From contig MEUB01000036.1 of assembly GCA_001771535.1 (NCBI GenBank), forward strand, positions 842 to 64,841: 64,000 nucleotides of DNA, in the 5' to 3' direction. Shown here piece after piece: positions 19,238 through 34,715 of the stretch (positions are counted from its first letter, which is position 1; the number at the start of each line of letters is the position of its first letter). The notes beneath the pieces are model-generated. The model saw nothing but the letters and a program-made list of their open reading frames with translations. It was not told where the DNA came from and did not search any database. This DNA comes from a candidate division WOR-1 bacterium RIFOXYB2_FULL_37_13. Lineage in GTDB: Bacteria; Margulisbacteria; WOR-1; XYC2-FULL-46-14; XYC2-FULL-37-10. A program made the translations under genes and the position numbers.

Positions 19238-20038
19238 TCATTGGAAATTGGACATTGGAAATTGGAAATTGTTCCCAAACATCTCTCTCATCTTACCCAA
19301 TACATCTTCACTTTTCAACAAGCTCTCCCCTATTAGGACGGCAGAAAAGCCGGCAGACTTGAGTTCGTCTATTTGAGATTTCTCGCTTATACCGCTTTCA
19401 GAGACCAAAATCCTTGATTTGAGTTCTGGGAATTTATCCAGCAATTTTAAAGAATTATTAAAATCGACTTTTAGAGTATCAAGGTTCCTGTTGTTTATTC
19501 CTACAATATCACAATTTAAAGACAATGCTTTTTCAATATCATATTCATCGTGAGTTTCAAGAAGGACTTGGAGCCCAAGCTCTTTAGCTTTTTCAAGGAA
19601 TCTTGAAAGATCAGGCAATTCTAAAATCCTAGCAATAAGCAGAATTGCATCAGCCCCTGCAATGCGCGATTCTGTTATTTGAAGTTCATCTATTATAAAA
19701 TCTTTGCGGAAAACAGGAAGTTTTACCGCGGCTCTTACCTGTTTTAGAAAGCCTATTTCACCTTGAAAATATGTTTTGTCGGTAAGAACAGATATTGCAA
19801 AGGCACCTGAAGATTCGTACTGTTTGGCAATTGAAACGGGATCAAAGTTTTTGACAATAATACCAGCGGAAGGAGAGGCTTTTTTGATTTCGGCAATAAG
19901 GGAAATTTTATTTTCTTGATTGATGGAAGACTTAAAGTCCCGCAAGTTAGGATCAAACTCCGTCTTAGCTGTTGCCAATCTTTCTTTTAAAGCTTCGATC
20001 TCTTTTCTTTTAGTTAAAATTATTTCATCGAGGATCAT
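19238..20038 (-). CDS. trpC: Indole-3-glycerol phosphate synthase
   Basis: TIM-barrel IGPS motifs ([21 protein letters not shown]); stop codon lies inside the heptamer repeat. Confidence 0.9.
19239..19275. repeat. Heptanucleotide tandem repeat, (TCCAATK)n on the minus strand, ~5 units
   Basis: Read directly: cattggaaattggacattggaaattggaaattg; translated as [11 protein letters not shown]-stop at the trpC C-terminus. Confidence 0.8.
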
Positions 20039-20111
20039 TTAAGGCTATTATAATCAACTTCTTAGCTTGCGTCCATCTCTTATGAAGTTTATAATATATT
20101 AGAGGTGTTTT

Positions 20112-20477
20112 ATGTCAACTTTAGCAGATTATAAAAAGTTTTGGTCAAGAAAATTCAAAGAAGACGAAAAAGCAAAAAAGAAGAAAATAAAACTTTTTAA
20201 GCAGCTTGCATCTGATGCAGCAAATATTTTAATAAAAGATTTTAAAGCCAAAAAGGTTTATCTCTTTGGATCAACTTTGGATGAAAAAATCTTTCATGAA
20301 AAATCAGACATAGATTTGGCAGTTGAAGGATTAAATCCTAAAATACATTTTTCCGCATTATCTGAAATAAAAAAACTGCTTTTTAAAAAAGCAAATGTAG
20401 ATCTTGTCCCTATGGAAGATGCATCGGAAGCACTTAAAGCATTAATTTTCAAAAAGGGAGAAATCTTATATGGCTAA
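20112..20477 (+). CDS. Minimal nucleotidyltransferase (MNT), TA antitoxin-type
   Basis: LFGSxxxxxxxxxSDIDLAV pol-beta-superfamily NTase motif; 121 aa. Confidence 0.7.
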   Translation: MSTLADYKKFWSRKFKEDEKAKKKKIKLFKQLASDAANILIKDFKAKKVYLFGSTLDEKIFHEKSDIDLAVEGLNPKIHFSALSEIKKLLFKKANVDLVPMEDASEALKALIFKKGEILYG

Positions 20478-20943
20478 ATTTGAAGGACTGATTATAGATA
20501 TAGATTTAGAACTTCAAAATCTTGATCGATTAACTATGGAGCTTGGTCAAACAACACAAGAGATAAAAGAGATTCCGGATTATACGCAGATAAGAGCTAT
20601 TGGCAGTATTTTACATGATTTTTATACAGGACTTGAGAAAATTTTTGAAAGAATCGCGTTAACCATAGATGGAGGAGTTCCTGAAGGTGATGATTGGCAT
20701 ATTCAACTTTTACGCCGAATGCTTGCCAATATTCCAGACCGCAGACCTGCCTTATTTACAAAAAATGTTGGAGAGTCTTTAGGCGAATATCTTAGCTTTA
20801 GACATCTTTTTAGAAATATTTATGGTTTTGAATTAAAATGGGAGCGTATGAGTCCTCTTGTTGAAAAATTCCCTTCTGTTTTCAAAGAAGTTGAATCTCA
20901 ACTTATGAAGTTTATAAACTTCATATCAGAAATACAAAATTAA
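20470..20943 (+). CDS. HEPN-like / nucleotidyltransferase substrate-binding (HI0074-like) partner protein
   Basis: 8-nt overlap with the MNT gene, size and helical character fit HEPN partners; motif not confirmed. Confidence 0.45.
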   Translation: MAKFEGLIIDIDLELQNLDRLTMELGQTTQEIKEIPDYTQIRAIGSILHDFYTGLEKIFERIALTIDGGVPEGDDWHIQLLRRMLANIPDRRPALFTKNVGESLGEYLSFRHLFRNIYGFELKWERMSPLVEKFPSVFKEVESQLMKFINFISEIQN

Positions 20944-20984
20944 GTATAAGAATCCTCATTCACTTAATACCTTTTTTAAAAAAT

Positions 20985-21075
20985 AACCTGAAATTTTTCA
21001 AAAACCATCATGATACTCTCACAAGTTAGGGAGGAAGGGGCCAAGAGGAAAAGAAATCAAGGAGGGAACAATGAC
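20985..21075 (+). repeat. Copy A of a ~90-bp duplicated 5' region (paralogous to 25950-26040), followed by a truncated 27-codon ORF
   Basis: ~85% identity to the sequence preceding the 26028 gene, including AAGGAG(G) RBS and an ATG-ACA start. Confidence 0.6.
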
Positions 21076-21236
21076 AAAGCCTGTAACAAAAACATCAAGA
21101 CCTAACCAAAGAACTCAAAGATGGCACAAGGAAAACCATAAAATGTTTTAGGTTGGAGAATGTAGAAATATGGGGGATGAAGAGGACTGCCGTTATGTAT
21201 TTTAGCGAAGCATTATATGACGGGCAGGTAAGGGGA

Positions 21237-21881
21237 TGGAAAAAGATTTAAAAAAAGCAATTGAAAATTTGGAAAGTTTCAAGCTATCAGGCATGAAAGG
21301 GAGTTTTTGGCACAAGAGAAAAAAATGTATGTGGACAAAAGAGCTTTTTGAAAGAGAGGCTGAAAAAATAGTTAATAAACAATTTATTAGAGATATCGTT
21401 GATATTAAGTGAAAAAAACAGGCAAGTAATTTATTTAGAATATGAGATTAACACACAAAAAAAGAATTTTTTGAAAAATACAGTTTTAGGGAAAAGAATC
21501 TTAATAACAAGCCGGCAGGACTGGAATAATGAGGAGATAGTTTTAGCTTATCAGGGGCAAAAGGATGTTGAGTTTGCGTTTAGGCAAATAAAAAATCCAT
21601 TTCATACCTGTATCAGACCTCAATATCATTGGACAGATCAAAAGATAAAAGTTCATGTGCTTTGTTCCATTATTGCATTTACTATTTGCGCTTTAATTGA
21701 AAAGACCGCAAGAGAGAATGATTGTCCTTTTATAATAAACGACATTTTGGATCGCTTATCTTCAATACGAAAAGTAAAATACATAATCCCCAAAACTAAA
21801 AATAAATTCAACATTGAATACGGTATGGAAGAAATCGAAGATGAAGCAACAAGAAAATTATTTGAAGTTTTGATGAAATAA
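21237..21881 (+). pseudogene. Degraded IS1634-family transposase (two frame-shifted fragments)
   Basis: C-terminal fragment carries the IS1634-type motif QGQKDVEFAFRQIKNPF..RPQYHWTDQKIKVHVLCSIIAF; an upstream fragment in another frame; no intact ORF or IRs. Confidence 0.6.
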
Positions 21882-22006
21882 TATATTTTTGGTGTATACA
21901 AGCTGTTCTTCTGAAAGTCAACAATGACAAGCCATGCAGGCTTTTTTATTTCTCCAGCAGTAAACTCACGCTAGCCCCGTTTCATAAAAAACAATTGGCT
22001 CTTTCT

Positions 22007-22474
22007 TTACTTAAAATTAAAAGCCACATTTTTTGTATTTTTAGGATCTATTTTAACAGGAAGAATAGCTCCAACCTGCATAAGATGTATAGCATTAAAA
22101 GGTATTACAAACCCATCTTCAACTATATAAGCAGGATACATAGGTGATGATATTTCTAATTTTATATCCATTACAGGCTGATAATTTAATTGGGTTTTTG
22201 ATGTTGCTATGCTTAATATTTCCCCCTTTCCATCAATCCCTTTTTTTAAAATATCTTTATCCCCAACAAAATTCCTCCAAATTACTTTTAATCCCTTGCT
22301 AAAAAACAACAGCAACAAAAGTATAGGCAGTAAAATTATTGCAATATTTATAATAGGAGTTATGCCAAAGTCTGTAATATTGCCAACATTGGAAAAATTC
22401 AAAATGAAAACTGAAGGAAGAACAAAAAAGATCCCAAAAATGACAAAAATAAGTACAAACTTTTCAGATCTCAT
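22007..22474 (-). CDS. Membrane protein, paralog family member (2 TM + C-terminal beta domain, bacterial PH/DUF304-like?)
   Basis: Paralogous to 32879..33739 and to the split gene 29223/32274 (shared IVEDxFxxPxxxxxLxQxGAxxPVKxDPKNxKxVA motif); conserved upstream promoter block. Confidence 0.65.
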   Translation of the reverse strand: MRSEKFVLIFVIFGIFFVLPSVFILNFSNVGNITDFGITPIINIAIILLPILLLLLFFSKGLKVIWRNFVGDKDILKKGIDGKGEILSIATSKTQLNYQPVMDIKLEISSPMYPAYIVEDGFVIPFNAIHLMQVGAILPVKIDPKNTKNVAFNFK

Positions 22475-22679
22475 TTTCCCACCTCAAGAACAGCTTAAGC
22501 TAGTAGATATGCTTTGTCAATAAGGGCTTAAGCCCCAAGAACCAATTTTTCCTCCAAAATAAATGAAATTTTTTAAAAATGATAATGATAAGGTACTATA
22601 GATATTGTCAGTTTTTGTTTGAAAAATAATTTTCAGGGAGGCATATTTATTATGGTTATAAGTTTAGGTACTATTGTAA

Positions 22680-23900
22680 ATGACTCAAAGTGGAGCAATT
22701 ATTATTCATAATCTCAAAAAAGCGGATGAAGCAGGAGATAATGACGGAGAGATTGATCAGTTGCCAGAAAATGATGAAGTTCAAGCCGCTTTTCGTCAGT
22801 TTCAATTGGAGCATTTAAATGATACAAATGCCTGGTTAGGGTTTTTGGGAATAATGAAAAGTGAAGATTACTCAGAACCAAAAGAGATTATTCCAGAAGT
22901 ATCAACAGAAGAGTTGTATACTATTTTATCTCAAGCAAGCTCTCCTATTGTTGTTGATACGGGAGCATTAGCTTGGTGCGCTGCGTGCAGAAAAGTGTCG
23001 AAAGCCTTAAATGAAATTATTCATAAAGTTACAATAACTGCGAAAAACAATCCATGTAATCCTATTTTGCTAATACAGCCCCCTTCTATAACAATAAAGC
23101 TTCCTCTAATTACAGGAAACAATGTTTTTGAAATTGCAGTAGAAGATATTTATGGGAATGTTCGCAGTCAAAGCTTCAATGCCAATGGAGGAAGATTGGT
23201 TGATGAAAGCAAACAATATATCGCAGAAGCGCTGCCTTCTGGAAACAATTTACCGCTATTACCTGTAATGATATTTGAATTTTCAGATGTAATAAAGTTC
23301 TCTTACTCAAAAGACTTTTCAGAAAAATTTCATTCTGATGCTGAGTTAAAGCAAAGGATGGATATGCTTAAAGCTTTAGTTTTACAATTAAATACAACTA
23401 TCCCGGGATGTAATATTTCTGGTGTAGAAATCGACCCTTCAAAAGAAAATTCTCTTTTTGCCGGAATTATTCCCGACATGAATGACCCAAATAAACAAGT
23501 AATTTTAATATCAGCCTCTAAGCTTGCCATCTATACAGGGGAAAATGAATTGTTGAGCCTGATGGTTGCTGTGGCTGTCGCAAAAAATTTATATGGCAAT
23601 TTAATTTCAGGGAAAGAAAGCGAATGGAATAACTTGGCAATAAAAGCAAGGCAAAACGAAGTGATCCCTTTTTTAGATTGGCCTATATGGGGATTTAAAA
23701 CCCTTGATAGAGCCTATTTCGTAGGAAGAAACACAGAAAAACTTTTTGTAAACGCTTTGAGCCTGATTTTAGTAATGGGAAAGAAATTCGGTGAAACAAT
23801 AGATGATCCAACAACGCTAATAAACAAAATCCCTCTTTCAGAAGAGCAAAAAAAAGTTTTAAGAGAAATAGAAAAATTTGTCAAAGAAATTTTAAAGTGA
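22680..23900 (+). CDS. Hypothetical protein (406 aa), first gene of a 4-gene unit
   Basis: ORF; GTGA overlap with the next gene; a 20-codon upstream mini-ORF with a strong RBS overlaps its start. Confidence 0.55.
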   Translation: MTQSGAIIIHNLKKADEAGDNDGEIDQLPENDEVQAAFRQFQLEHLNDTNAWLGFLGIMKSEDYSEPKEIIPEVSTEELYTILSQASSPIVVDTGALAWCAACRKVSKALNEIIHKVTITAKNNPCNPILLIQPPSITIKLPLITGNNVFEIAVEDIYGNVRSQSFNANGGRLVDESKQYIAEALPSGNNLPLLPVMIFEFSDVIKFSYSKDFSEKFHSDAELKQRMDMLKALVLQLNTTIPGCNISGVEIDPSKENSLFAGIIPDMNDPNKQVILISASKLAIYTGENELLSLMVAVAVAKNLYGNLISGKESEWNNLAIKARQNEVIPFLDWPIWGFKTLDRAYFVGRNTEKLFVNALSLILVMGKKFGETIDDPTTLINKIPLSEEQKKVLREIEKFVKEILK

Positions 23901-25951
23901 TAAACATCTCTTTTGCAATCCCTCGTTCTCTTGCAAGCCTCGTCCACGAACCCAAGCAAGGAAAAAACGAAGAAGAAACAGCAATCAAAGCACTTATGCA
24001 AAATGGGTTTTCCAGAGAAGAGGCAATTGCGGTAATCAATGCTTTAGTAAAAATTCATTTTGGAGAGTTTGACACAGAAGGTGAAAAAAGATTTTTAAGA
24101 AATATGCCCGATTTTTTGAAAGTTTTAAAACGGCCCGCCCTCTTTAGAAGCACATTCCCTAATGGCGTGCACGATGAAAATCTAATAAATTCTTTTATTG
24201 ATTTCTTAATAGCTTTTGGAACAATAAAAAAGGGTTCTAAAGATTTAAAAAATTGCTTGAGCTGTCTAACAATGGACAATAATATTCCCCAAGAAATTAG
24301 CCTTGTTGCTGGTTATTTGTTAGACAGAAAAACTTCTTCTAATTTTGAGCTTATACGCCCTGTAAAAATAAATGGTAAGATTTACCTCCAAATTGAGGCT
24401 TCCTATATGAGAAAGGGAATTTCTCTTCCAGGCAACAATGTTTTAGAAGAGGGTTCTGTGCTATACAGAGATGGAAATTGGTTTTTTACTCCCCCGGTAA
24501 ACAACCAAAGAGACATAAGAACTCTTCCCACTATAAGTGGCGTTAGAATTCGTTCTCTTGCCCTTGCTGTTTCTGCCCCCAAACCAGGCAAATCGTTAGG
24601 TCATGAACTGCTCGCAAATCAACCGATGATCCCAATTTATTTCGATGGTCTGCCCAAAAATGCGCCGGAATATATCTCTTTAAGCCCAACAACAAAAGAA
24701 GTTGCCTTTAGTCTAAGCCAAGGGACTTATCTTGTTTTTGAAATAGGAAATCCATTCATAAAAAATTTTAGGGGTGCCGAAATAACTGTTCATTACACTC
24801 TTTTCCAAAAAGATGGAAATTTAGCCCTTAACCCAACCCTACTGCCCTCTTTTCATATAACAACTCCTGACCGCAAGCCTGTCTCATCCTTATCTATCAA
24901 TCCTCCATCTTTGTCTACGGGAGAACTGTTAAGGATCCAAATAGAGGATGAATTCTCAAGAATTTTTGTTGAATACGGAACTGGGAAAACCGGTTTTTAT
25001 GCAGAAGAAAATTTGGCATTAAATGAGCAAAACACAATCCCTCTTGAAATAAGATTGCAGAATGAAAGCTTTGTTATAAATGAATTTGGGGAATTTATTG
25101 TATTTAATGGGGGAGAAGAAAAAAGAAGAGGTTTCCCATATAACTCAAATTACAATCTGGATTTTACTTTGCCAGTAAGCCTCGAAAAAATCAGAAGTCC
25201 CTATGATCATCTTTCAAGATCAATTTTCGACAATAAAAAAGTAGCTGTTTTCTATGAGAGGGCGCCTATGACAAGAGGCCAAACCTTAGCTCATTTAGCC
25301 CATGCTTATTTATTGCTTCCCCCAATACTGCAAAGACAGATAAAAGTCATTAGATTTTCTTATAAAGAAGGACAAAGGAATAAGAGTGCAACATACAGCT
25401 TGCCAAATACAAGAGAAATAAGAATCAATGAAGGATTTTTCTTCCCCTCTCTTTCCTATCTGTCTGAAAAATTCGAAGCTTTTCGTAAAGAATGGGAAGA
25501 AGGGGTTCCTTCTTATGTAAAATCAGAAGCGCAAACTTTGGGGCTCGGATTTTGTGGCAGGCTTGAACTTATGCCTTTCGGTAACATGCCTAAAGGTTAT
25601 TCAGGAACAAAATCATCTGGCGAAAAAGGAGCTCCTTTCATCGTTACCACAAGACCCGCTTCTGGATTAGTAACTCGAGAACCGATAGATGTGGTAAATT
25701 TATATGCTGAAGCGGCTTACATTCTAGCAAGCAGAGAGCCAAATAGATTTTCTGGGTGGGAAAGAACAGATAAAAAAATAACAATTGCGGAAGATGTAAA
25801 AAACTTTCTTCTTGGGATAATAAGGCTCGAATTTGTATACAGCAAAAAACCTTCTCAAGCAACTTTTATCAAGAATCTGACAATCTTAAAAAGTAACGGC
25901 ATAATTACTGAAACTCAAGAAATACGAGCCAAGGCTTTGATGAAAAAATAA
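23897..25951 (+). CDS. Hypothetical protein (684 aa)
   Basis: Long ORF translationally coupled to the upstream gene; no family recognised. Confidence 0.6.
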   Translation: MINISFAIPRSLASLVHEPKQGKNEEETAIKALMQNGFSREEAIAVINALVKIHFGEFDTEGEKRFLRNMPDFLKVLKRPALFRSTFPNGVHDENLINSFIDFLIAFGTIKKGSKDLKNCLSCLTMDNNIPQEISLVAGYLLDRKTSSNFELIRPVKINGKIYLQIEASYMRKGISLPGNNVLEEGSVLYRDGNWFFTPPVNNQRDIRTLPTISGVRIRSLALAVSAPKPGKSLGHELLANQPMIPIYFDGLPKNAPEYISLSPTTKEVAFSLSQGTYLVFEIGNPFIKNFRGAEITVHYTLFQKDGNLALNPTLLPSFHITTPDRKPVSSLSINPPSLSTGELLRIQIEDEFSRIFVEYGTGKTGFYAEENLALNEQNTIPLEIRLQNESFVINEFGEFIVFNGGEEKRRGFPYNSNYNLDFTLPVSLEKIRSPYDHLSRSIFDNKKVAVFYERAPMTRGQTLAHLAHAYLLLPPILQRQIKVIRFSYKEGQRNKSATYSLPNTREIRINEGFFFPSLSYLSEKFEAFRKEWEEGVPSYVKSEAQTLGLGFCGRLELMPFGNMPKGYSGTKSSGEKGAPFIVTTRPASGLVTREPIDVVNLYAEAAYILASREPNRFSGWERTDKKITIAEDVKNFLLGIIRLEFVYSKKPSQATFIKNLTILKSNGIITETQEIRAKALMKK

Positions 25952-26040
25952 AGTGAAATTTTTCGAAAACCATTATGATACTCTTGCAAGTTAGGGAGAA
26001 AGAGGTCAAGCATTCAAGGAGAAAAAAATGACACAAACTT
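25950..26040 (+). repeat. Copy B of the ~90-bp duplicated 5' region (see 20985-21075)
   Basis: Alignment by eye with copy A. Confidence 0.6.
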
Positions 26041-26540
26041 CCAGCAAAAGCTGTTTACTTTTGGCAATGAGTCGTCACGCTTTTTATGAAATTAACAGGC
26101 ATATTCCCACCACACAAAAAGGTTTGCCAAAAATCTTGAAAAGAAAATTGTATGGCGATGTAATTCCAAGAATAGAAAGAACTCTTTCCACAGCCGACAC
26201 AATAAAAGCCAAAGAAATAATTTCTATCGTTATTGAAACTGTAATGGATTTTTGGAAAAAAGACCCTTCTTTAGAAACGGCAAAAAAATTATCAGAAGAG
26301 CTAGACAATGTTATGTTAATAATCGAAACAGCACACTTTTTTAATCAAGTTATAGGAGAAAATATAGTTAATTTTTCATCTTTGTCTCCCTGTTTAAAAA
26401 TGTTCTCAAATCTACCGATAATAAGGAGATTAAGTCGTATGGTGGAAGATATTAAAGCAACAGCCCAAAAAAGCCCACCTGATTTCGCAATAACACCTGC
26501 TCTTTGGACTGGTTTCAAATCTTCAGAATACGACAATTGA
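26028..26540 (+). CDS. Hypothetical protein (170 aa)
   Basis: ORF with AAGGAG RBS; a truncated paralogous start exists at 21061. Confidence 0.55.
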   Translation: MTQTSSKSCLLLAMSRHAFYEINRHIPTTQKGLPKILKRKLYGDVIPRIERTLSTADTIKAKEIISIVIETVMDFWKKDPSLETAKKLSEELDNVMLIIETAHFFNQVIGENIVNFSSLSPCLKMFSNLPIIRRLSRMVEDIKATAQKSPPDFAITPALWTGFKSSEYDN

Positions 26541-26558
26541 AAAAAGGGGGAATAAAAA

Positions 26559-28661
26559 ATGGCAATGGAAATGGCAGCCTCTGCAATAGCACATGCTAGA
26601 CAACTCGGACAAACAGCTTTAAAAACAGTTTCCCAAGGTCAACACACTGCATCTCTTCGACAACAAGAAGCTTTTTTCCAAGTAATGTTTGATGCAAGTT
26701 TCCCTGCTGCAAAAAGAGTAGCTTACCAACTATATCCAAACAAAACATTGGTTGACAGTCCAAAATATAGGGCAAACTTAGAATTTCAACTGAGAAGAAT
26801 CCCTCCTGCACTACGAACAGCAATTTTCGCTGTATTGCATGCTATGCAACATCCAGTTGTTTTTAATAATATAGTAAACCCTCCAACAAATATACCCCAA
26901 ATAGCAAATTTATTAGGTGTTATTGAATTGGCAGGAAGAATGACGCTTCCATCGCTACTAGATAATCCTCAAATAAGTCCTAATCACTTTTCTATAGTCC
27001 AAAGAAATACTAGCAGAGTTGATTTGACACAATTTGACACCTTTTTTAAAGATGGGAGAATCCCTCGTCAATTTAGAAAAAATGATTTTGTTATAGTCGG
27101 ATCAGGCCCAGGAGGGATAATGACAGCACATATTTTACATGAAAAATACCCAGATGCTCAAATTCTAATAATTGAAGAAGGAGATTATTATCCTGGTAAA
27201 ATTTTCGGCAATTCAACTCCTATAAGAGCTACAGGTGAGTTCTATTCAGAAGGAGGAGTAACTGCTGCTATTGATTTAAAAAATGCAAGTGGAACAGCTG
27301 CCCCTACTGGCAAAGCGGTTGGAGGAAGCATGGAAATTTTTAGTACAACTGCGGCAAGAGTCAGAACCAGCGAGGAGTTTGAGCTTTATGGTTTAAGTAA
27401 ATATATGACTTGGGAAAAATATCAGAAGACAGTTGCTTGGGTAGAAGAGATACATGATGTTGCTGAAAACCCACAGGAAATAATCAACACAATAACCAAG
27501 GAAATGATCAGAGCCGCACAAAATATGCCTAAAGAATCTGGGATTAGAAATGCTGGTCCTACAAAATCATTTAGTGCTCATAAGTGTGGTGGCCTAGGAA
27601 AATGTCCTGTTGGCTGTGATACGGGAGGAAAAGAGACAACAGCTATGGTTCTTTTGCCTGCGCTTTTGGCATCTGGAAAAGTAGGATTAGTTTCAGGAGC
27701 AAAAGTTACTCAAACTATTTTAAGATCAGACAACAGCCCTAAGGCTGTAAAAATATTTTCAATGGAAGGCGTCTCTACCATTGGAATAGAAGATGGTATT
27801 ATTTCAAGTGCCGGTACATTTGGTTCCCCAGTTATAGTACATAACGCAGGGATTCGACTCCCTATGTTAGGCAAAAAATATACTGGGCAAGCAGCATTTG
27901 AACTTTTTGCATTTAATCCAAACAAAAAAATTGATCCCCCTCAACATGTAGGAAAGCCTCAATCTGGTTATATTGAGGTTTACAACACAGATAATGCGTT
28001 AGCTGATCTTGTTGCCACAGTAGACGGATTTATCGGGCTTGGTGAAGGGGCACGTCCTGCTACAGGAATTCTTGCAATGGCAAGGAGACGCTTATATGGA
28101 ACAAATTTAAGAGATTCAATAGAAGGACTTCCTTACACTGGCGTTTTTGGAGGAGTTCTCACTGAAAACATGGAAGATGTTAGGGCCGGTCTTTCAGGAG
28201 GAAATGTATATCCTGGATTGAGTAATATTTTTGGACAAAAAGTGCTAACATACTCATTATCTGAAAGAGATAGAATGAGAAGAAAATTGCTTGCATTAGC
28301 CCTCTTAAAAGTAGCCGCAAATACTCCTCAAGGAGAATATTTAGGAATAGGCCTCAATCATTTTTTTCCAAGTAAAAGCAAGTATGCTAGTTGGGGATTA
28401 TTCCTTTCTTCAGAATTACCTGAATTCGAAAGATATTTATTGCCAAATAAAAAAGTCGACTTGAGTGAAGAAATATTTTTTCATCCTATGGGATCAATGG
28501 GAGATTGTGTCGATAACGAAGGGAAGGTAATAGGCTCAAAAGATTTTTATGTAATAGATGGATCTTTATTTAAGGGCCCTGGAGTAAATCCTACAATTTC
28601 AATATTAACAGTTGCTGCTGAATTAGCTTCAAAAATAAAAAGGAGAAAAAGAATACATTAA
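26559..28661 (+). CDS. GMC-family FAD-dependent oxidoreductase (choline dehydrogenase / cholesterol oxidase-like) with ~170-aa N-terminal extension
   Basis: FVIVGSGPGG Rossmann FAD motif at residue ~178; C-terminal GMC signature (HPMGSMGDCVD...VIDGSLF..NPTISI). Confidence 0.7.
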   Translation: MAMEMAASAIAHARQLGQTALKTVSQGQHTASLRQQEAFFQVMFDASFPAAKRVAYQLYPNKTLVDSPKYRANLEFQLRRIPPALRTAIFAVLHAMQHPVVFNNIVNPPTNIPQIANLLGVIELAGRMTLPSLLDNPQISPNHFSIVQRNTSRVDLTQFDTFFKDGRIPRQFRKNDFVIVGSGPGGIMTAHILHEKYPDAQILIIEEGDYYPGKIFGNSTPIRATGEFYSEGGVTAAIDLKNASGTAAPTGKAVGGSMEIFSTTAARVRTSEEFELYGLSKYMTWEKYQKTVAWVEEIHDVAENPQEIINTITKEMIRAAQNMPKESGIRNAGPTKSFSAHKCGGLGKCPVGCDTGGKETTAMVLLPALLASGKVGLVSGAKVTQTILRSDNSPKAVKIFSMEGVSTIGIEDGIISSAGTFGSPVIVHNAGIRLPMLGKKYTGQAAFELFAFNPNKKIDPPQHVGKPQSGYIEVYNTDNALADLVATVDGFIGLGEGARPATGILAMARRRLYGTNLRDSIEGLPYTGVFGGVLTENMEDVRAGLSGGNVYPGLSNIFGQKVLTYSLSERDRMRRKLLALALLKVAANTPQGEYLGIGLNHFFPSKSKYASWGLFLSSELPEFERYLLPNKKVDLSEEIFFHPMGSMGDCVDNEGKVIGSKDFYVIDGSLFKGPGVNPTISILTVAAELASKIKRRKRIH

Positions 28662-28800
28662 TAAAATTTATTTCTATTCGATAAAAACATATGCGTATAG
28701 TTTTTATAAACACTCTTCCTCCGTATAGAGTTATATAAAACTCAATTGCCCTTCTATCCAAAATCCTATATAATCCCAAACAAGAAAAGGAGTAATTAAT

Positions 28801-29226
28801 ATGTCAGACAAATTATTGATAATTTCAGTTATAATCGCAGGTTTAATTGTTTCTTTATTTATCGTATTTAATAACAACCCTATAAGTAAAACTGTATCCA
28901 CTTTTATGACAGATATAAACAGAATAAAGATTCCAAACAGTTTCCCCAAAGATATTCCAATTTACCCAAATGCAAAAGTTGAAACCTTATCAATTAAAAA
29001 AAGCCAGACCCTTCTTGTCCTTATTTCCAAAGATAGCCCGACACAAATAAACAACTTCTATGCTTTAGAAATAAAAAAATACGGCTGGACATATACATCA
29101 AAAGACATTAATTTCTATGCGTCAACCAAAGAACATCGTGAATTATTTGTTTCTATATCCAAACTCCCTGAAGAGATAAACAAAAATGGACATTATATAG
29201 TAATCAATGAAACAACTAAAGATTAA
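28801..29226 (+). CDS. Small N-terminally membrane-anchored protein, paralog of 32372..32872
   Basis: Shared FPKDxPxYxNxK and NNFY/HNFY..GW motifs with the 32372 protein. Confidence 0.6.
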   Translation: MSDKLLIISVIIAGLIVSLFIVFNNNPISKTVSTFMTDINRIKIPNSFPKDIPIYPNAKVETLSIKKSQTLLVLISKDSPTQINNFYALEIKKYGWTYTSKDINFYASTKEHRELFVSISKLPEEINKNGHYIVINETTKD

Positions 29227-29402
29227 AGCGCAGTTTTTTCCCCTGAAGGATTAATATTCCAGGCATTTATAGCTACCCTTTTTGGGTTTTTTGGATCAAC
29301 CTTAACGGGGATAACGGCTCCCAACTGGATAAGAGAAAGCCCCATTAAAGGAATCAAAAATTTGTTTTCTATAATATAATATTCGAGCTTGTCCGTCAAC
29401 TC
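29223..29402 (-). pseudogene. C-terminal fragment of an IS-disrupted membrane-protein paralog
   Basis: ~150 bp near-identical to 33240-33390 of the intact paralog; homology stops at the outer IS junction (29403). Confidence 0.6.
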
Positions 29403-30001
29403 CCAGTCTTGTCTAATGCAAGATGTCCCTGAAGTAAAGACTGTTTCTAACGCAAAATGTCCCTGAAATGTCATTATCGAGCTTATGAATAAGCTAATAA
29501 TGATGGATCATAAAATAAAAACTGTTTCGAATCTTGAAAATCTTCTAAAAGCTGTGGTGAATTTAGATTTTCAACTAATTGACAAAAAAACTACCTACGA
29601 TTGGATTGATGATATTTTAAAAAGATTCAATTACATGTCTGCTTCAAAGAAACATAAAGGAATTTTAAAGCGTTACATTATGAAAATGACTGGTTATAGC
29701 GGTCGACAAGTTAAAAGGCTCATCAAAAAGCAATTTCAAACTGGAAAATTGACAATAAGTAAAAGTTCTAACCGTTGCAAATTCAAAAATATATACACCA
29801 AAAAAGATATCGCTTTGCTGGTTAAAACGGATAATCTTCACAATCGCTTAAATGGGTTAGCCACTAAAAAGATTTTTGAAACCGAGCATTTTACTTATGG
29901 AAAAAAGAAATATGAAAGGTTAAGTAAAATCTCTATAGCTCATATTTACAACTTGCGAAAAACTACGACATTGATCTTCCCCCCAAAAAGTAGACAGTAA
30001 A

Positions 30002-30862
30002 TTATGCATTCACGAACTTTTTTTCAAAGTTGTCTGGCGACAGAAACCCTATGGACGAGTGCCTTCTCTGTCGATTATAGAACACTTCGATGTAATTGAA
30101 AATGGACTGCCGCGCCTCCTTTCTTGTGGCATATCTTTCAAAATAGACTTGTTCAGTCTTCAATGAATGAAAGAAACTCTCGGTTATAGCATTATCGTAA
30201 CACCTCCCTTTGCGACTCATGCTTTGAATGAAACCATAATTGTTAAGCAATAGTCTCGTATCTCTGGCCGCATATTGAATACCTCGATCAGAATGAAATA
30301 TTATATTTTTGCCTGGCTGGCGGCTCAAGATAGCACCCTTTATGGCCTTGACCACCAATTGGCTTTCTAGGTGCTTTCCCATAGACCATCCGACAATCTT
30401 TCTGGAAAAGACATCAAGAACAACTGCAAGATAAAGCCAGCCCTCCAATGTCCAGATGTATGTAATATCTGATGTCCAGACTCGATTGGCTGATGCTGAA
30501 ACAAAGTTTTGCTTTAGAATATTTGGAGCTACTGGCAAAGTGTGCTGAGAATCAGTTGTCACTCTAAATTTTCTTCTTGTCTTAGCCACAAATTTGCCTT
30601 TCATAAGACGCTCAATCCTTTTTTTATTGTAATGATAACCTTGGCTCTTAAGTTCGGCACAAACTCTGGGCCGACCATAAAGCTCATGGTTTTCAAAAAA
30701 AATCTTCTTGATCTTATCCAGCAAAACCTCATTTTCTGTTTCTCTTTGGCTTTTCTCTCCCCTTAGCCATTTGTAATAGCCGCTTCGTGATACATCTAAC
30801 AACTGGCACATCTTCTCAACCGGAAAGTCGAAGCATTGCTCTCTTACAAACATAAATCTCAT
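30002..30862 (-). CDS. IS3-family transposase OrfB (integrase core, DDE)
   Basis: HSDRGIQY ... CYDNAITESFF motifs. Confidence 0.85.
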   Translation of the reverse strand: MRFMFVREQCFDFPVEKMCQLLDVSRSGYYKWLRGEKSQRETENEVLLDKIKKIFFENHELYGRPRVCAELKSQGYHYNKKRIERLMKGKFVAKTRRKFRVTTDSQHTLPVAPNILKQNFVSASANRVWTSDITYIWTLEGWLYLAVVLDVFSRKIVGWSMGKHLESQLVVKAIKGAILSRQPGKNIIFHSDRGIQYAARDTRLLLNNYGFIQSMSRKGRCYDNAITESFFHSLKTEQVYFERYATRKEARQSIFNYIEVFYNRQRRHSSIGFLSPDNFEKKFVNA

Positions 30863-31158
30863 CTCGGTTGTTTGGAGAAGATGGCCACTGCTTTTTTTAA
30901 AATATCTCGCTCCAACCTGGCCTCTGCCAACTCTTTTCTTAAACGCCTGATTTTAAGAGATTCCTCAATCCCTCCGCTTGTTTCTCCGTCTTCTCCCTCT
31001 CTTCGATCACGTTTTTGCCATCCATACAGCGTACTCGATGACACTCCTAAATCTTTAGCAATTGAGGCTACAGGTCGCTTGCTGGTATTAATTAAATCCA
31101 GCGTTTCCCTAATGAAGTCCTTATCACACCGTTTATATGGTCCTTTCTTTTTCCCCAT
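30859..31158 (-). CDS. IS3-family transposase OrfA (HTH)
   Basis: HTH region, leucine-zipper-like C-terminus; A-run slippery sequence (TTAAAAAAAG) ~35 nt before the stop, consistent with -1 frameshifting into orfB. Confidence 0.8.
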   Translation of the reverse strand: MGKKKGPYKRCDKDFIRETLDLINTSKRPVASIAKDLGVSSSTLYGWQKRDRREGEDGETSGGIEESLKIRRLRKELAEARLERDILKKAVAIFSKQPR

Positions 31159-32022
31159 AAAATCCCCCCCCTCTAATATATTATCAAAATCTCTAATTAC
31201 TGTGTCTACTAAAAGGGGGGAGGGTCACATATCGTGACAGATCAATTACTTTCACCAAGACTAATCCAAGGAAAATTAATATCGGCGAAAGAAAACGCCC
31301 TGAACCTCAAGGCAAGCCAGGCTATATCCGCGTAGATACTGTGCATCAGGGCGATTCCGACAAACAAAAAGGGGTCTATTATATAAATACTGTCGACGAA
31401 GTTACCCAATGGCAGGCAATTGCCGCTGTAGAAAAAATATCTGAAACATATTTACTCGAGGCTCTCTTAGGCTTGCTCAATCAATTTCCATTTGAAATCA
31501 TTGAATTTCATAGCGACAATGGTTCAGAATACATCAACAGACAAGTCGCAGAACTTTTAAACAGACTTTTAATTAAACTTACGAAATCTCGAGCTAGACA
31601 CTGTAATGATAACGCTTTAGTAGAGTCAAAAAATGGGGCTGTAATTAGAAAATGGATGGGCTATGCTCATATTCCTCAGAAACATGCCCAAGACATCAAC
31701 AAATTCTTTAAAAAATATTTTAATTTATATTTAAACTACTACAGACCTTCTATTTTCCCTGAAATTGTATTTTCTGCAAAAAGAAAAGAGGTCAAAAAAT
31801 ACAGATATGAGAATACAATGACCCCTTTCGCAAAACTAAAATCCATTTTTGAATACAAAAAGTTCCTCAAAAAGAATACTTCCGTCGTTGACTTAGAATT
31901 GTTTTTAAGCAATGATAGTCCTAATGAGTTTGCTGAAAAGGTGGTGAAGGCTCAAGATTGTCTCTTTAATGGCATTTCTACCTAACCCTTTTTCAGGGAC
32001 ATTCTTGCATTAGAAAATACTC

Positions 32023-32274
32023 TCCCTTTTCACGAAGCTCCTGATCACTAACCAATGAAGTCCACAGAATCTTAAGAACAGAAATTATAAAAGGAAGAAA
32101 AATCAAGATCGACACAACAGGAATAGCTACGGGTAAAATATCACTCGGTCGCGAACCAAACCCCATAGCAACTCGGCTTCTATACATATCCAAAAAAACA
32201 GCTGGAATTATACCAAAAAAAGCAACGGTAAAAATAAAAATAGAAAAAATAATTATAAATTTTGCTGATCTCAT
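32023..32274 (-). pseudogene. N-terminal (2-TM) fragment of the IS-disrupted membrane-protein paralog
   Basis: First 84 codons match the intact paralog 32879..33739 (MRSxKF...SDQELREKG); last 9 codons come from the IS end. Confidence 0.6.
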
Positions 32275-32313
32275 CTCTCCACCTCAATAACAGCTTAAAT
32301 TAGGAGAAATGCT

Positions 32314-32341
32314 TTGTCAATAAAGGTTTAAGTAGTATAAT
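32314..32341 (+). promoter_or_regulatory. Sigma70-like promoter TTGTCA-16 bp-TATAAT for the 32372 gene, inside a conserved bidirectional promoter block
   Basis: Read directly; AAAGGAG RBS 8 nt before ATG 32372; the same ~60-bp block recurs at 33741-33810 and 22476-22545. Confidence 0.45.
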
Positions 32342-32371
32342 GCCTATACATTTAGTAAAAGGAGTTGTCAT

Positions 32372-32872
32372 ATGAATAAAGGTTTATTGATTGGCGTCAT
32401 AGTTTTGGGATTGATCGCATCTCTGTTTGTAGTCTTTAATTACAACTCAATGTTCGGTCTAGTCGTAGGTTTTATGACAGGGGGAGAAACTACTTGGAAC
32501 AACAATGCTTTAGGAACTAACCAGGGAGGCATAATTCACTTAGCCGCAATGCCGGGGAAAGGAATAAATCCCCCAAAACAGTTTCCAAAAGATTTACCTG
32601 TATATTCAAACAGTAAAATTATTACTCTGCATATAGATACAACACAAACTCCAAACTTGATCAATATAATAATGGAATCTGACGATGATGCAAATACAGT
32701 ACACAATTTTTATAAATCTGAAATGCAAAAGAATGGATGGGCGTTGAAAAGTGAAAATGGTTCAGTTTTTATGACAGATTGGACAAAAGACATCCGCAAA
32801 TTGAGCATTATGATATCTCAAGGCAAACGGGGAAATCCAAATACGCCAGGATGTTCTATAATGATTAATTAA
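32372..32872 (+). CDS. Small N-terminally membrane-anchored protein (166 aa), paralog of 28801..29226
   Basis: Paralogy plus RBS. Confidence 0.6.
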   Translation: MNKGLLIGVIVLGLIASLFVVFNYNSMFGLVVGFMTGGETTWNNNALGTNQGGIIHLAAMPGKGINPPKQFPKDLPVYSNSKIITLHIDTTQTPNLINIIMESDDDANTVHNFYKSEMQKNGWALKSENGSVFMTDWTKDIRKLSIMISQGKRGNPNTPGCSIMIN

Positions 32873-32878
32873 GCCTTA

Positions 32879-33739
32879 TTATATAGGCTTTTGTATACTT
32901 CCAGTCATAGCTATCATGACATGTGTTGGATCATTGTTGTCTATTTCACAAGGATATACAGCTCCCACTCTAATAAGTTGTAAGGCAACATCCGGCAAAG
33001 GCATCTCTTTATCAAGAACATATGGAGTTATTCCTTCTCCGGTTACCTCATATTTAAGAGAATAAACTTTTTGACCATTTTTTGTCTTTTCCGCATCGGC
33101 AAAACCCATTATCCTAGCCTGGCCTTTTTTTCCATTAACCACAACGCCTCGCTCCACATTCCCAGCAACCCCTAAATTTTGAAAATTTACAGGCATCCCT
33201 TGCATTATGGGTTGTCCTTGAAAATTTTGCGCAGTTCTTTTTTCTGAAGGATTAATATTCCAGGCATTTATAGCTACCCTTTTTGGGTTTTTTGGATCAA
33301 CCTTAACGGGGATAACGGCTCCCAACCGGATAAGAGAAAGCCCCATTAAAGGAACCATAAATTTGTCTTCTACAATATAAGGAGGCTGGTTTGAGGTCGA
33401 CACTTCCAGTTTCAGTTTCATCATCGGTTGATTGTTTATTTGCGTTCCGGTCTGAATAACCTCCAAAATTCGCGCTTGCCCGTCAACTCCTTTTTCACGA
33501 AGTTCTTGATCACTAAATATCATTTTCCAGATTATTTTAATAGGGCCAATCAAAGAAGGAATAACAAAAAAAATAATCGCAATAATAAATACTATCGGCA
33601 AAAAATCTATCGGACGCAAACTAAGTCCCATATCGACTCTACTTCTATAAATATTCAGAAAAACGGCCGGAAGAACACCAAAACAAACAACAATAAAAAC
33701 AAAAACAGAAGAAATAATTGCAAATTTTACTGATCTCAT
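32879..33739 (-). CDS. Membrane protein, intact paralog with 2 TM and two tandem copies of the C-terminal beta domain
   Basis: Motif xLxxVGAxxPxxxDxxxP appears twice; N-terminus MRSVKF... shared with the other paralogs. Confidence 0.7.
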   Translation of the reverse strand: MRSVKFAIISSVFVFIVVCFGVLPAVFLNIYRSRVDMGLSLRPIDFLPIVFIIAIIFFVIPSLIGPIKIIWKMIFSDQELREKGVDGQARILEVIQTGTQINNQPMMKLKLEVSTSNQPPYIVEDKFMVPLMGLSLIRLGAVIPVKVDPKNPKRVAINAWNINPSEKRTAQNFQGQPIMQGMPVNFQNLGVAGNVERGVVVNGKKGQARIMGFADAEKTKNGQKVYSLKYEVTGEGITPYVLDKEMPLPDVALQLIRVGAVYPCEIDNNDPTHVMIAMTGSIQKPI

Positions 33740-33777
33740 TTTTTCACCTCAATGACAGCTTAAAATAGTAGAACTGC

Positions 33778-33805
33778 TTTGTCAATAAGGGTTTAAGAAG
33801 TATAA
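33778..33805 (+). promoter_or_regulatory. Sigma70-like promoter TTGTCA-16 bp-TATAAT upstream of rsmH, second copy of the conserved bidirectional block
   Basis: Read directly; TATAAT ends 10 nt before the rsmH ATG. Confidence 0.45.
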
Positions 33806-33815
33806 TGTTTATTAT

Positions 33816-34715
33816 ATGGATACATTCCACCTGCCTGTAATGGCAAAAGAGATAGTTAATTTTCTCTCCCCTCTTAACGGAAAAACAATCGTCGATTGTA
33901 CGGTGGGTGGAGGGGGACACATCTCAAAACTAATATCCAATATCCAATTTCCAATTTCCAATGTCCAATGTCCAATGTCCAATTTCCACATCATAGCTAT
34001 CGACCAAGACCAGGAAGCTCTTGAGTTTGCTAAAAAACGATTGGCTAAATATGACAACATTGAATATATCCATGACAATTTTGGCAACTTGGCAAATATA
34101 ATAAAAGAGTCTGTTGATGCTTTTCTCTTTGATCTTGGCATTTCATCATACCAGATAGACCAGGCTTCCCGCGGTTTTAGCATACGATACGATGCGCCTC
34201 TTGATATGCGAATGGACAAAAGTAAACAGACATCCGCTCGCGAAATAATCCACAATTCAAGCGAGGATGAATTAGCGCAAATTTTCAAAGAGTATGGTGA
34301 AGAGCGGTTTTCAAGAAGAGTTGCCCGCGCGATTGTCTTGGAAAGAGACAAAAAAGAGATAAACACAACATTTGAGCTGAAAGATATAATAGAGAAAGCA
34401 ATCCCCACATGGAAAAAGAGAGAGTCTGTTACCCGCATATTCCAAGCACTCCGAATTGCTGTTAATTCAGAGCTTGATGTTTTAAAAAAAGCTCTGGAAT
34501 CAACAATCCCTTTACTTAAACCGGAAGGGAAAATAATCGTAATGTCGTATCATTCATTGGAAGATCGAATTGTTAAATGGTTTTTCAGAGATAAAGCTAA
34601 AAATGGTATACTTAATATACTTACAAAAAAGCCTGTTCTTGCGACAGAAGAAGAGACTGCAATTAATCCAAGGGCAAAAAGCGCTAAGTTGCGGTGCGCT
34701 GAAAAGAACAACTAA
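33816..34715 (+). CDS. rsmH: 16S rRNA (cytosine1402-N4)-methyltransferase
   Basis: GGGGH SAM-binding motif, DLGISSYQID motif; contains an in-frame heptamer-repeat insertion. Confidence 0.85.
   Translation: MDTFHLPVMAKEIVNFLSPLNGKTIVDCTVGGGGHISKLISNIQFPISNVQCPMSNFHIIAIDQDQEALEFAKKRLAKYDNIEYIHDNFGNLANIIKESVDAFLFDLGISSYQIDQASRGFSIRYDAPLDMRMDKSKQTSAREIIHNSSEDELAQIFKEYGEERFSRRVARAIVLERDKKEINTTFELKDIIEKAIPTWKKRESVTRIFQALRIAVNSELDVLKKALESTIPLLKPEGKIIVMSYHSLEDRIVKWFFRDKAKNGILNILTKKPVLATEEETAINPRAKSAKLRCAEKNN
33935..33990. repeat. Heptanucleotide tandem repeat, (NTCCAAT) x ~7.5 units, inside rsmH
   Basis: Read directly: ATCCAAT ATCCAAT TTCCAAT TTCCAAT GTCCAAT GTCCAAT GTCCAAT TTCCACA; translated in frame as [18 protein letters not shown]. 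Confidence 0.85.

What the first reader, a model, noticed from the sequence alone, without database searches (positions are those of the whole stretch)
28801..33810. Duplicated two-gene membrane module with its own portable bidirectional promoter; one copy inactivated by nested IS insertions
The module is a small plus-strand TM-anchored protein (28801-29226; 32372-32872) paired convergently with a minus-strand 2-TM protein carrying one or two copies of a ~90-aa beta domain (motif IVEDxF..P..GLSLIxLGAVIPVKVDPKNPKRVAIN). Its fold is possibly bacterial-PH/DUF304-like. A ~60-bp block is conserved at 22476-22545, 32276-32345 and 33741-33810 (CACCTCAA.ACAGCTTAA..TAG.AGA..TGCTTTGTCAATAAGGGTTTAAG.AGTATAAT). 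It supplies TTGACA/TAAGCT plus a GAGGTG RBS for the minus-strand gene, and TTGTCA-16-TATAAT for the divergent plus-strand gene, including rsmH at 33816. The -35 elements of the two strands overlap as a palindrome-like TTGTCAA. Copies at 29223-29405 and 32023-32274 are the two halves of one gene split by an IS. They are ~97% identical at the DNA level to the intact copy over ~150 bp, apart from an ~85-bp indel.
Basis: seen in the sequence. Interest (0 to 1): 0.62.

Follow-up and report, generated by a model that had tools for sequence, protein, structure and literature searches.

The report
Duplicated membrane-gene units sharing a promoter block
A variable stretch next to the cell-division gene rsmH in an uncultured groundwater bacterium holds three diverged copies of a membrane-protein gene of unknown function, each copied along with its short promoter region, and one copy is dead; this is ordinary gene-family growth and decay, not a new kind of system.

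Summary
The window comes from candidate division WOR-1 (Saganbacteria). It has three paralogs of a protein with two membrane helices plus a beta domain: A 22007-22474, pseudogene B, and C 32879-33739. It also has two paralogous small anchored proteins and three copies of a ~50-nt upstream block (0 expected by chance). B is split by an IS3-family element nested inside a second IS, both with target-site duplications, and it carries an 86-nt frameshifting deletion.

- The beta domain is a divergent DUF3592 domain with an OB-like barrel fold. It is not PH/DUF304-like.
- The small proteins belong to Pfam AF_1845 (PF27226).
- The block is the intergenic control region between divergent genes. It was copied by segmental duplication and is 86-90% identical, against 54-60% for the coding DNA.
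- It reads as two back-to-back sigma70-type promoters whose -35 hexamers overlap. This is predicted, not shown.
- No copies were found outside this gene family.
- In the sister genome there is only one DUF3592 gene, the two small genes lie in tandem, and a repeat element splits the minus-strand promoter.
- Distant DUF3592 homologs have no such partner gene.

Protein function remains unknown. Interest is low.

The parts
22007..22474 (-). Paralog A: 155-aa protein with a two-helix membrane hairpin and one DUF3592-like beta domain
   Evidence: ORF. 37% identical to C. Matches the family HMM at 2.3e-25.
22480..22529 (.). Block copy A. On the minus strand: SD GAGGTG at 22480-22485, -10 TAAGCT at 22492-22497, -35 TTGACA at 22515-22520. 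There is no plus-strand TATAAT.
28801..29226 (+). 141-aa small N-anchored protein, paralog of the 166-aa AF_1845-family protein
   Evidence: 83% identical to the sister-genome ortholog.
29223..29404 (-). 3' remnant of pseudogene B (end of its single beta domain). 94% identical to C over 152 nt. Carries an 86-nt frameshifting deletion relative to C.
   Evidence: (D3).
29405..32021 (+). Outer IS with an rve/DDE transposase. It has imperfect terminal inverted repeats (AGTCTTGTCTAATGCAAGATGTCCCTGAA and its counterpart) and the 5-bp target duplication CTCCC at 29400-29404 and 32022-26.
   Evidence: rve domain. The IS481 model scores below its cut-off.
29972..31227 (-). Inner IS3-family element (orfA 30859-31158, orfB 30002-30862) nested in the outer transposase gene. 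It has TGA...TCA ends and the 3-bp duplication CAT.
   Evidence: NCBIfam transpos_IS3 scores 340 bits against a cut-off of 160.
32027..32274 (-). 5' part of pseudogene B (membrane hairpin up to ELREKG). 75% identical in DNA to C.
32280..32341 (.). Block copy B. Minus strand: SD 32280-32285, -10 TAAGCT 32292-32297, -35 TTGACA 32315-32320. Plus strand: TTGTCA 32314-32319, 16-nt spacer, TATAAT 32336-32341.
32372..32872 (+). 166-aa small N-anchored protein of the AF_1845 (PF27226) family. The model shows an alpha/beta domain after the anchor, placed outside the cell by topology inference.
32879..33739 (-). Paralog C: 286-aa protein with a two-helix membrane hairpin and two DUF3592-like OB-type barrels
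33745..33806 (.). Block copy C. Minus strand: SD 33745-33750, -10 33757-33762, -35 33780-33785. Plus strand: TTGTCA 33779-33784, 16-nt spacer, TATAAT 33801-33806. The TATAAT ends 9 nt before the rsmH ATG.
33816..34715 (+). rsmH (MraW methyltransferase). It is the divergent neighbour of C and has no SD, so its mRNA is probably leaderless.
   Evidence: Pfam Methyltransf_5 at 6e-98. Sequence. The ortholog in L001 has TATAAT 6 nt before its ATG.

Best explanation
The interval between trpC and rsmH in this WOR-1 (Saganbacteria) genome is a rearrangement-prone region. It holds a head-to-tail array of three units. Each unit is a minus-strand gene for a DUF3592-family membrane protein, a ~50-60-nt control block, and a divergent plus-strand gene: <-A | block | (four genes) 141-aa gene-> <-B | block | 166-aa gene-> <-C | block | rsmH->.

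The units arose by segmental duplication that copied the 5' control region along with the gene. The block is most likely two back-to-back sigma70-type promoters:
- TTGACA-17-TAAGCT followed directly by the SD GAGGTG, for the DUF3592 gene.
- The near-consensus TTGTCA-16-TATAAT, for the divergent gene. For rsmH this would give a leaderless mRNA.

The two -35 hexamers share 5 bp (TTGTCAA), so the two promoters probably compete for RNA polymerase. The block has been kept by purifying selection while the coding sequences diverged. This would keep the paralogs under common control.

Copy B is a pseudogene. It has an 86-nt frameshifting deletion, an IS insertion, a second IS inside that IS, and a recent conversion tract shared with C.

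The proteins:
- DUF3592 protein: an N-in membrane hairpin with one or two OB-like barrels, inferred to be cytoplasmic.
- Small protein: a signal-anchored alpha/beta domain, inferred to be exported.
- Their biochemical role is unknown. My best guess is an accessory function at the cell envelope.

Shown: the anatomy, homology, fold class, conservation, IS junctions and comparative arrangements. Inferred: promoter activity, promoter competition, membrane topology and protein function.
For: **Block and promoters**
- Three exact pattern matches against 0 expected.
- The first 50 nt of the block are 86-90% identical. The coding DNA is 54-60% identical between A and B/C, with third positions at 38-42%, so silent sites look close to saturated.
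- The variable columns are the same in all pairs (block positions 9-10, 20-21, 25, 29-30). This fits constraint better than recent homogenisation.
- The plus-strand promoter scores 11 of 12 at copies B and C.
- In the sister genome L001 the plus half survives upstream of both the 167-aa gene and rsmH. At the 167-aa gene there is no divergent DUF3592 gene.
- Copy A keeps only the minus half. So each half is conserved on its own where only one gene needs it.

**Proteins**
- The family has 2935 representatives at E <= 0.001.
- 38 of 47 relatives match PF12158.
- The AlphaFold model has pLDDT 84.5, with barrels above 90. Top fold matches are OB folds.
- K/R counts across 43 family members give an N-in/C-in topology.
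- The small proteins carry PF27226.

**Pseudogene and rearrangements**
- IS junctions and target duplications; IS3-family assignment.
- The trpC and rsmH anchors bracket 13.8 kb here and 3.3 kb in L001.
- Strain-level junction differences occur at window positions 32354 and 33343.
Against: - There are no transcript data, so promoter activity is only predicted.
- The minus-strand -10 TAAGCT matches 3 of 6 positions and was not called by the scanner.
- A start site 7 nt after that -10 falls on the first base of the SD. This leaves only about an 11-nt leader.
- In L001 an ~86-nt REP-like insertion separates the minus-strand -35 from its -10, yet the 297-aa gene is intact. That promoter is therefore either dispensable or replaced there.
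- Conservation of 12 of 17 spacer positions is more than a plain promoter needs. It hints at an extra binding site.
- The genome-wide copy number of the block could not be measured, because the source genome is absent from both scanned collections.
- The sequence is a metagenome-assembled contig.
Confidence: 0.6

Rival explanations
1. The block is conserved because it carries something more than core promoter elements. One option is an operator for a dimeric regulator, using the inverted repeat CTTAAR-N27-YTTAAG around the -35 hexamers and the invariant spacer bases. The other is a 5'-UTR hairpin in which CCCTTA pairs with the SD region. Either could coexist with the promoters.
For: - 12 of 17 spacer positions are invariant, and the variable dinucleotides recur about every 10 bp.
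- The inverted repeat is kept in copy A by a change on both sides, A-U to G-C.
- A minus-strand hairpin that sequesters the SD is predicted at -8 kcal/mol.
Against: - There are only three sequences and a single compensatory change.
- The right arm of the inverted repeat is not kept upstream of rsmH in L001, which reads GGGACTAAAAG.
- The hairpin needs a start site upstream of the -35, and no good promoter is found there.
- There is no Rfam match.
- No regulator gene is evident next to the locus.
Confidence: 0.2
2. The block's high identity comes from gene conversion among the paralogs, not from selection. Its promoter-like hexamers would then carry no special meaning beyond the ancestral intergenic region.
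For: Conversion does happen at this locus. The 3' remnant of B is 94% identical to C, with about 85 nt identical in a row, while the 5' half of B is 75% identical. A 99.5%-identical strain carries B-type bases in its C gene.
Against: - No pair of blocks is near 100% identical (86, 86 and 90%).
- The differences fall in the same few columns in every pair.
- Copy A lies 10 kb away and shares no other conversion tract.
- The orthologous block in L001 keeps the same invariant core.
Confidence: 0.12
3. The block is a self-contained portable promoter cassette, in the first reader's sense. It moves on its own and drives whatever gene it lands beside.
For: The same block sits upstream of three different plus-strand contexts: an operon 150 nt downstream of copy A, the 166-aa gene and rsmH.
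Against: - Every copy is attached to a DUF3592 paralog and continues into its coding sequence (D1 and D2).
- The block has no terminal repeats or target duplications of its own.
- No extra copies occur in the 64-kb window.
- None were found in the two public collections beyond the orthologous locus.
Confidence: 0.04
4. The arrangement is partly an assembly artefact of a metagenome-assembled genome, with paralogous or strain-variant segments joined wrongly.
For: Contigs from a 99.5%-identical strain break or diverge at window positions 32354 and 33343. Repeats and IS copies are classic causes of misassembly.
Against: - Both IS insertions have clean target-site duplications and restore open reading frames when removed.
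- The paralogs are too diverged (54-75% DNA identity) to be collapsed or swapped by an assembler.
- L001 independently shows the C-block-rsmH and promoter-167 junctions.
Confidence: 0.04

Closest known systems
DUF3592 (Pfam PF12158) membrane proteins
   Same: Membrane helices next to a small beta domain of about 85-90 aa with the G..V.V.YDP.NP-type ending. 38 of 47 profile relatives of the window protein match PF12158. One direct relative carries it. The function is unknown in the literature (PMC12482557; bioRxiv 10.64898/2026.07.15.738315).
   Different: The window proteins score below Pfam's cut-off themselves (14.6 against 25.3 bits). This branch has both membrane helices at the N-terminus, followed by one or two barrels.
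AF_1845 family (Pfam PF27226)
   Same: Proteins 99% and 77% identical to the 166-aa protein carry a precomputed PF27226 hit.
   Different: The 141-aa paralog has no hit on record. The local Pfam copy returned no PF27226 match, so the model is probably absent from it. No function or solved structure is available. Only weak fold similarity was found, to the BamC N-domain, the Tli4/TplEi immunity proteins and LpqH, all at E > 0.1.
Classical back-to-back divergent sigma70 promoters in a shared intergenic region
   Same: Two oppositely oriented -35/-10 pairs lie in about 60 bp between divergent genes. Their upstream elements overlap, so the two RNA polymerase binding sites overlap.
   Different: The arrangement is unproven here. 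The same region has also been triplicated together with its gene.
Bidirectional promoters in the sense of Warman et al. (bioRxiv 10.1101/2020.01.31.928960)
   Same: Divergent transcription arising from sequence symmetry in promoter elements.
   Different: Those have overlapping -10 elements and start sites 7-25 bp apart, most often 18 bp. Here the -35 elements overlap and the predicted start sites are about 63 bp apart.
IS3-family insertion sequence nested in another IS
   Same: orfA/orfB with HTH and rve domains, TG...CA-type ends and a 3-bp duplication. The NCBIfam IS3 model scores well above its cut-off.
   Different: The host IS has an rve transposase that fits no curated IS family model (IS481 model 54.7 bits against a cut-off of 224).

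Membership tests
DUF3592 (PF12158) | Protein scores above Pfam's gathering threshold | tested here: not met
   C scores 14.6 bits against a cut-off of 25.3 (E 0.055). A has no hit.
DUF3592 (PF12158) | Significant homology to proteins that do match PF12158 | tested here: met
   P0003 (E 2.6e-6 to C) carries PF12158. 38 of 47 full-length profile hits match PF12158, best E 4.9e-12.
DUF3592 (PF12158) | Small beta domain anchored to the membrane by adjacent transmembrane helices | tested here: met
   The AlphaFold model has helices 2-36 and 43-83 followed by two barrels with pLDDT above 90. Hydropathy scan.
   No such Pfam hit at E <= 0.1. The best structural matches are OB folds: Teb1 AB at 8e-4, RPA, SSB, eS28, CsaA and DUF2500.
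AF_1845 (PF27226) | Pfam PF27226 match | tested here: inconclusive
   Precomputed hits exist on P0004 (99% identical) and P0005 (77% identical). The local Pfam copy gave no hit for the window proteins. The 141-aa paralog has none on record.
Back-to-back divergent sigma70 promoters | -35 and -10 hexamers with 16-18 nt spacing on both strands | tested here: inconclusive
   The plus strand scores 11 of 12 at copies B and C and has no site at A. The minus strand reads TTGACA-17-TAAGCT (9 of 12, with the -10 at 3 of 6), which is below the scanner's rule.
Back-to-back divergent sigma70 promoters | Mapped transcription start sites on both strands | not testable with these tools
   No transcript data are available.
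Warman-type bidirectional promoter | Overlapping -10 elements with divergent start sites 7-25 bp apart | tested here: not met
   The -10 elements lie about 39 bp apart (32292-32297 and 32336-32341). The -35 elements are what overlap. Definition taken.
IS3 family (inner element) | Transposase above the curated cut-off, orfA/orfB layout, short target duplication | tested here: met
   NCBIfam transpos_IS3 scores 340 bits against 160. HTH_Tnp_1 plus rve domains. 3-bp duplication CAT and TGA...TCA ends.
IS481 family (outer element) | Transposase above the curated cut-off | tested here: not met
   54.7 bits against a cut-off of 224. Only the rve domain is recognised.

The most novel reading that the evidence does not exclude
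The block may be a dedicated switch rather than a plain promoter. Its two -35 hexamers overlap, and extra invariant bases (a possible operator) surround them. Together these would make transcription of a DUF3592 membrane protein and of the divergent gene mutually exclusive. At copy C the divergent gene is rsmH, which in many bacteria (general knowledge, not tested here) opens the cell-division/cell-wall (dcw) cluster. That would tie a DUF3592/AF_1845 envelope pair to division-gene expression in Saganbacteria.
Probability: 0.1. Interest if true: 0.45.

Novelty: new member of a known kind. Interest (0 to 1): 0.2.

Why it matters
The direct value is modest.
- It gives a clear example of a control region staying 86-90% identical across paralogs whose coding DNA has drifted to 54-60%. 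This marks about 50 nt as a functional regulatory element in a phylum with no genetics.
- It predicts a leaderless rsmH mRNA.
- It assigns two 'hypothetical' gene sets to DUF3592 and AF_1845, and gives a fold (OB-like barrels, probably cytoplasmic) for a divergent DUF3592 branch.

It does not reveal a new system. The pairing with the small protein was seen only in this WOR-1 clade and is unstable even between close strains.

Tried and rejected
- **Genome-wide block count.** The pattern TAGNANANNTNCTTTGTCAATAARGG was scanned against genome contigs and metagenome contigs. Genome contigs gave three chance hits in Bacteroidota. Metagenome contigs gave two chance hits plus the L001-type contig twice. 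The source genome is in neither collection, so its copy number stays unknown.
- **PH/DUF304 fold.** Rejected.
- **Defence system or named family.** There are no PADLOC or NCBIfam hits for the module or for the four genes between A and the 141-aa gene.
- **Known RNA family in the block.** No Rfam match at E <= 1.
- **Sequence match to solved structures.** Nothing meaningful for either protein.
- **Conserved gene pairing in other lineages.** Three loci of distant DUF3592-like proteins had readable flanks on both sides, and two short contigs had a convergent ORF. None shows an AF_1845-like neighbour or a block-like upstream sequence.
- **Wider family of the small protein.** Word-indexed searches reached only WOR-1 sequences.
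- **Literature.** DUF3592 has no established function. A search for AF_1845 found nothing relevant.

Full report
**Source and observation**

The 286-aa protein encoded at 32879-33739 is identical to a hypothetical protein of candidate division WOR-1 bacterium RIFOXYC2_FULL_37_10, a groundwater metagenome-assembled genome.

Two small plus-strand proteins lie at 28801-29226 (141 aa) and 32372-32872 (166 aa). Each has one N-terminal hydrophobic helix, and they are 34% identical, E 9e-23. Two intact minus-strand paralogs are A (22007-22474, 155 aa) and C (286 aa). They are 37% identical, and C carries a second copy of the beta domain. The block pattern occurs exactly three times, at 22480, 32280 and 33745, each directly upstream of one paralog. 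Shuffled sequence gives no matches.

**The dead copy**

Paralog B is split at 29404/32027. The outer insertion (29405-32021) has imperfect terminal inverted repeats and a 5-bp target duplication, CTCCC. Inside its transposase gene sits a 1256-bp IS3-family element (29972-31227) with TGA...TCA ends and a 3-bp duplication, CAT. Removing the inner element gives one continuous reading frame for the outer rve transposase, about 413 aa when joined at the exact ends. The inner transposase passes the curated IS3 model, and the outer fits no curated IS family.

With the IS removed, B still goes out of frame after ...VDGQARIL, because 86 nt present in C, A and the sister-genome ortholog are missing. The 3' remnant of B is 94% identical to C over 152 nt, whereas the 5' half is 75% identical. 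This indicates a recent conversion tract. Before it decayed, B was a one-domain protein like A.

**What the proteins are**

An exhaustive profile search found 2935 cluster representatives at E <= 0.001. Most are 250-290 aa and align end to end, so two helices plus two barrels is the common architecture. Of 47 such relatives, 38 match Pfam DUF3592. The window proteins themselves fall below the Pfam cut-off.

The AlphaFold model built from that alignment has mean pLDDT 84.5. It shows a helical hairpin (residues 2-36 and 43-83) and two barrels with pLDDT above 90. Its best matches among solved structures are OB folds: Teb1 tandem OB, RPA, SSB, eS28, CsaA and DUF2500. This rules out the suggested PH/DUF304 fold.

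Across 43 family members the loop between the two helices is short and poor in K/R (mean 0.4). The N-terminal tail (1.8) and the 15 residues after helix 2 (3.2) are rich in K/R. By the positive-inside rule the barrels are cytoplasmic. This is an inference.

Close relatives of the 166-aa protein carry Pfam PF27226, named AF_1845. Its model (pLDDT 80, above 90 after residue 70) is an alpha/beta domain behind an N-terminal anchor. It has only weak similarity to the BamC N-domain, the Tli4/TplEi immunity proteins and LpqH, all at E > 0.1. There are no defence-system or NCBIfam hits. The literature gives DUF3592 no function. One preprint predicts a mycobacterial member to be a cofactor of the MptB mannosyltransferase.

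**The block**

The first 50 nt of the block are 86% (A-B, A-C) and 90% (B-C) identical. The coding DNA is 54-60% identical between A and B/C, with third positions at 38-42%. The few variable columns are the same in every pair (block positions 9-10, 20-21, 25, 29-30). This fits purifying selection better than recent homogenisation.

On the minus strand the block reads TTGACA, 17 nt, TAAGCT, 6 nt, GAGGTG, 5-6 nt, ATG. On the plus strand it reads TTGTCA, 16 nt, TATAAT, which scores 11 of 12 at copies B and C. Copy A lacks the TATAAT. The two -35 hexamers share 5 bp.

The rsmH ATG lies 9 nt after the TATAAT with no SD, and 6 nt after it in the sister genome. A leaderless rsmH mRNA is therefore predicted. 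This layout is a classical back-to-back promoter pair. It is not the -10-symmetric bidirectional promoter of Warman et al., in which start sites lie 7-25 bp apart.

There are caveats. The minus-strand -10 is weak and was not called by the scanner. The implied leader is only about 11 nt. Twelve of the 17 spacer bases are invariant, which suggests an additional binding site. A small inverted repeat (CTTAAR...YTTAAG) shows one compensatory change, and a weak hairpin could sequester the SD. There is no Rfam match.

**Comparative evidence**

The sister genome, WOR-1 RIFOXYA2_FULL_36_21 (L001 and identical contigs), shares the anchors trpC and rsmH. Between them it has only 3.3 kb, against 13.8 kb in the window. 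Its gene order is: a 270-aa gene (minus strand), a promoter, the 167-aa gene, the 141-aa gene, a single two-domain DUF3592 gene (minus strand), the block, then rsmH.

Upstream of the 167-aa gene only the plus half of the block survives (TTTGTCAATAAAGGTTTAAGTGGTATAAT), and there is no divergent DUF3592 gene. Upstream of rsmH the plus promoter is intact. However, an ~86-nt REP-like hairpin element with TTAA flanks lies between the minus-strand -35 and -10. That element family is abundant in L001 (12 matches in 20 kb) and absent from the window.

So each half of the block persists where its gene persists, and the minus promoter is not inviolable. In the N-terminal 92 aa, B and C are each closer to the single L001 gene (65% and 68%) than to each other (58%). 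The B/C duplication is therefore at least as old as the split between the two genomes, and L001 has lost one copy.

Contigs from a strain 99.5% identical to the window over 32354-33520 have a different sequence upstream of the 166-aa gene. It contains the end of a third small paralog and its own TTGCAC-17-TATAAT. One of these contigs also has foreign sequence breaking gene C at window position 33343.

Three loci of distant DUF3592-like proteins had readable flanks on both sides, and two short contigs had a convergent ORF. None shows an AF_1845-like neighbour or a block-like upstream sequence. Pattern scans of the genome and metagenome collections returned only chance hits plus the L001-type contig. 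The source genome is not in those collections.

**Conclusion**

The locus is a clade-specific, unstable tandem array of units, each consisting of a DUF3592 gene, a control block and a divergent gene. It grew by segmental duplication and is now being eroded by IS elements, deletion and conversion. The block is a real conserved regulatory element, most likely a back-to-back promoter pair, possibly with an operator. It is portable only in the sense that duplications carried it along with its gene. The gene products belong to two known families of unknown function. This is a new member of known kinds and of low interest. The one mildly novel possibility is that promoter competition links a DUF3592 gene to rsmH expression.

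Noticed in passing
window 33932-33987: A 14-nt tandem repeat (CCAATnTCCAATnT...) lies inside rsmH. It encodes an insert ([19 protein letters not shown]) that the sister-genome ortholog replaces with an unrelated stretch (D5, 17).
   Followed up: partly
window 33801-33818; L001 12169-12184: rsmH has no Shine-Dalgarno sequence, and its ATG lies 9 nt (6 nt in L001) after a consensus TATAAT. This predicts a leaderless mRNA.
   Followed up: partly
window 20978-21045 and 25943-26010: A second duplicated intergenic block: 68 nt, 87% identical, ending in a GGGAGG-like SD. One copy precedes the 170-aa gene at 26028. The other lies between a HepT-like toxin gene and transposase fragments (D4).
   Followed up: no
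window 19238-33816 versus L001 8096-12182: The trpC-to-rsmH interval is 13.8 kb here and 3.3 kb in the sister genome. The extra DNA includes a HepT-like toxin gene with an overlapping upstream ORF that may be its antitoxin (20112-20943), transposase fragments (21236-21881), and four plus-strand genes at 22680-28661. Three of those have no family hit, and the fourth is a 700-aa GMC-oxidoreductase-like protein.
   Followed up: partly
L001 9856-9880, 10579-10602, 12043-12128 and elsewhere: A REP/MITE-like hairpin repeat (AACCCCGATTA...TAATCGGGGTT) is abundant in the intergenic regions of the sister genome: 12 matches in 20 kb against 0.4 expected. It is absent from the window. One copy with TTAA flanks splits the block upstream of rsmH.
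   Followed up: partly
L024/L025 1-232; L026 1083-1136: Contigs from a strain 99.5% identical to window 32354-33520 carry a third small-protein paralog upstream of the 166-aa gene. They also carry foreign sequence, possibly another IS end, that interrupts gene C at window position 33343.
   Followed up: partly
window 29412-29433 and 29446-29467: The left end of the outer IS holds two direct copies of a 22-nt motif (TCTAAYGCAARATGTCCCTGAA) 34 nt apart, which may be repeated transposase-binding sites (D16, 77).
   Followed up: no
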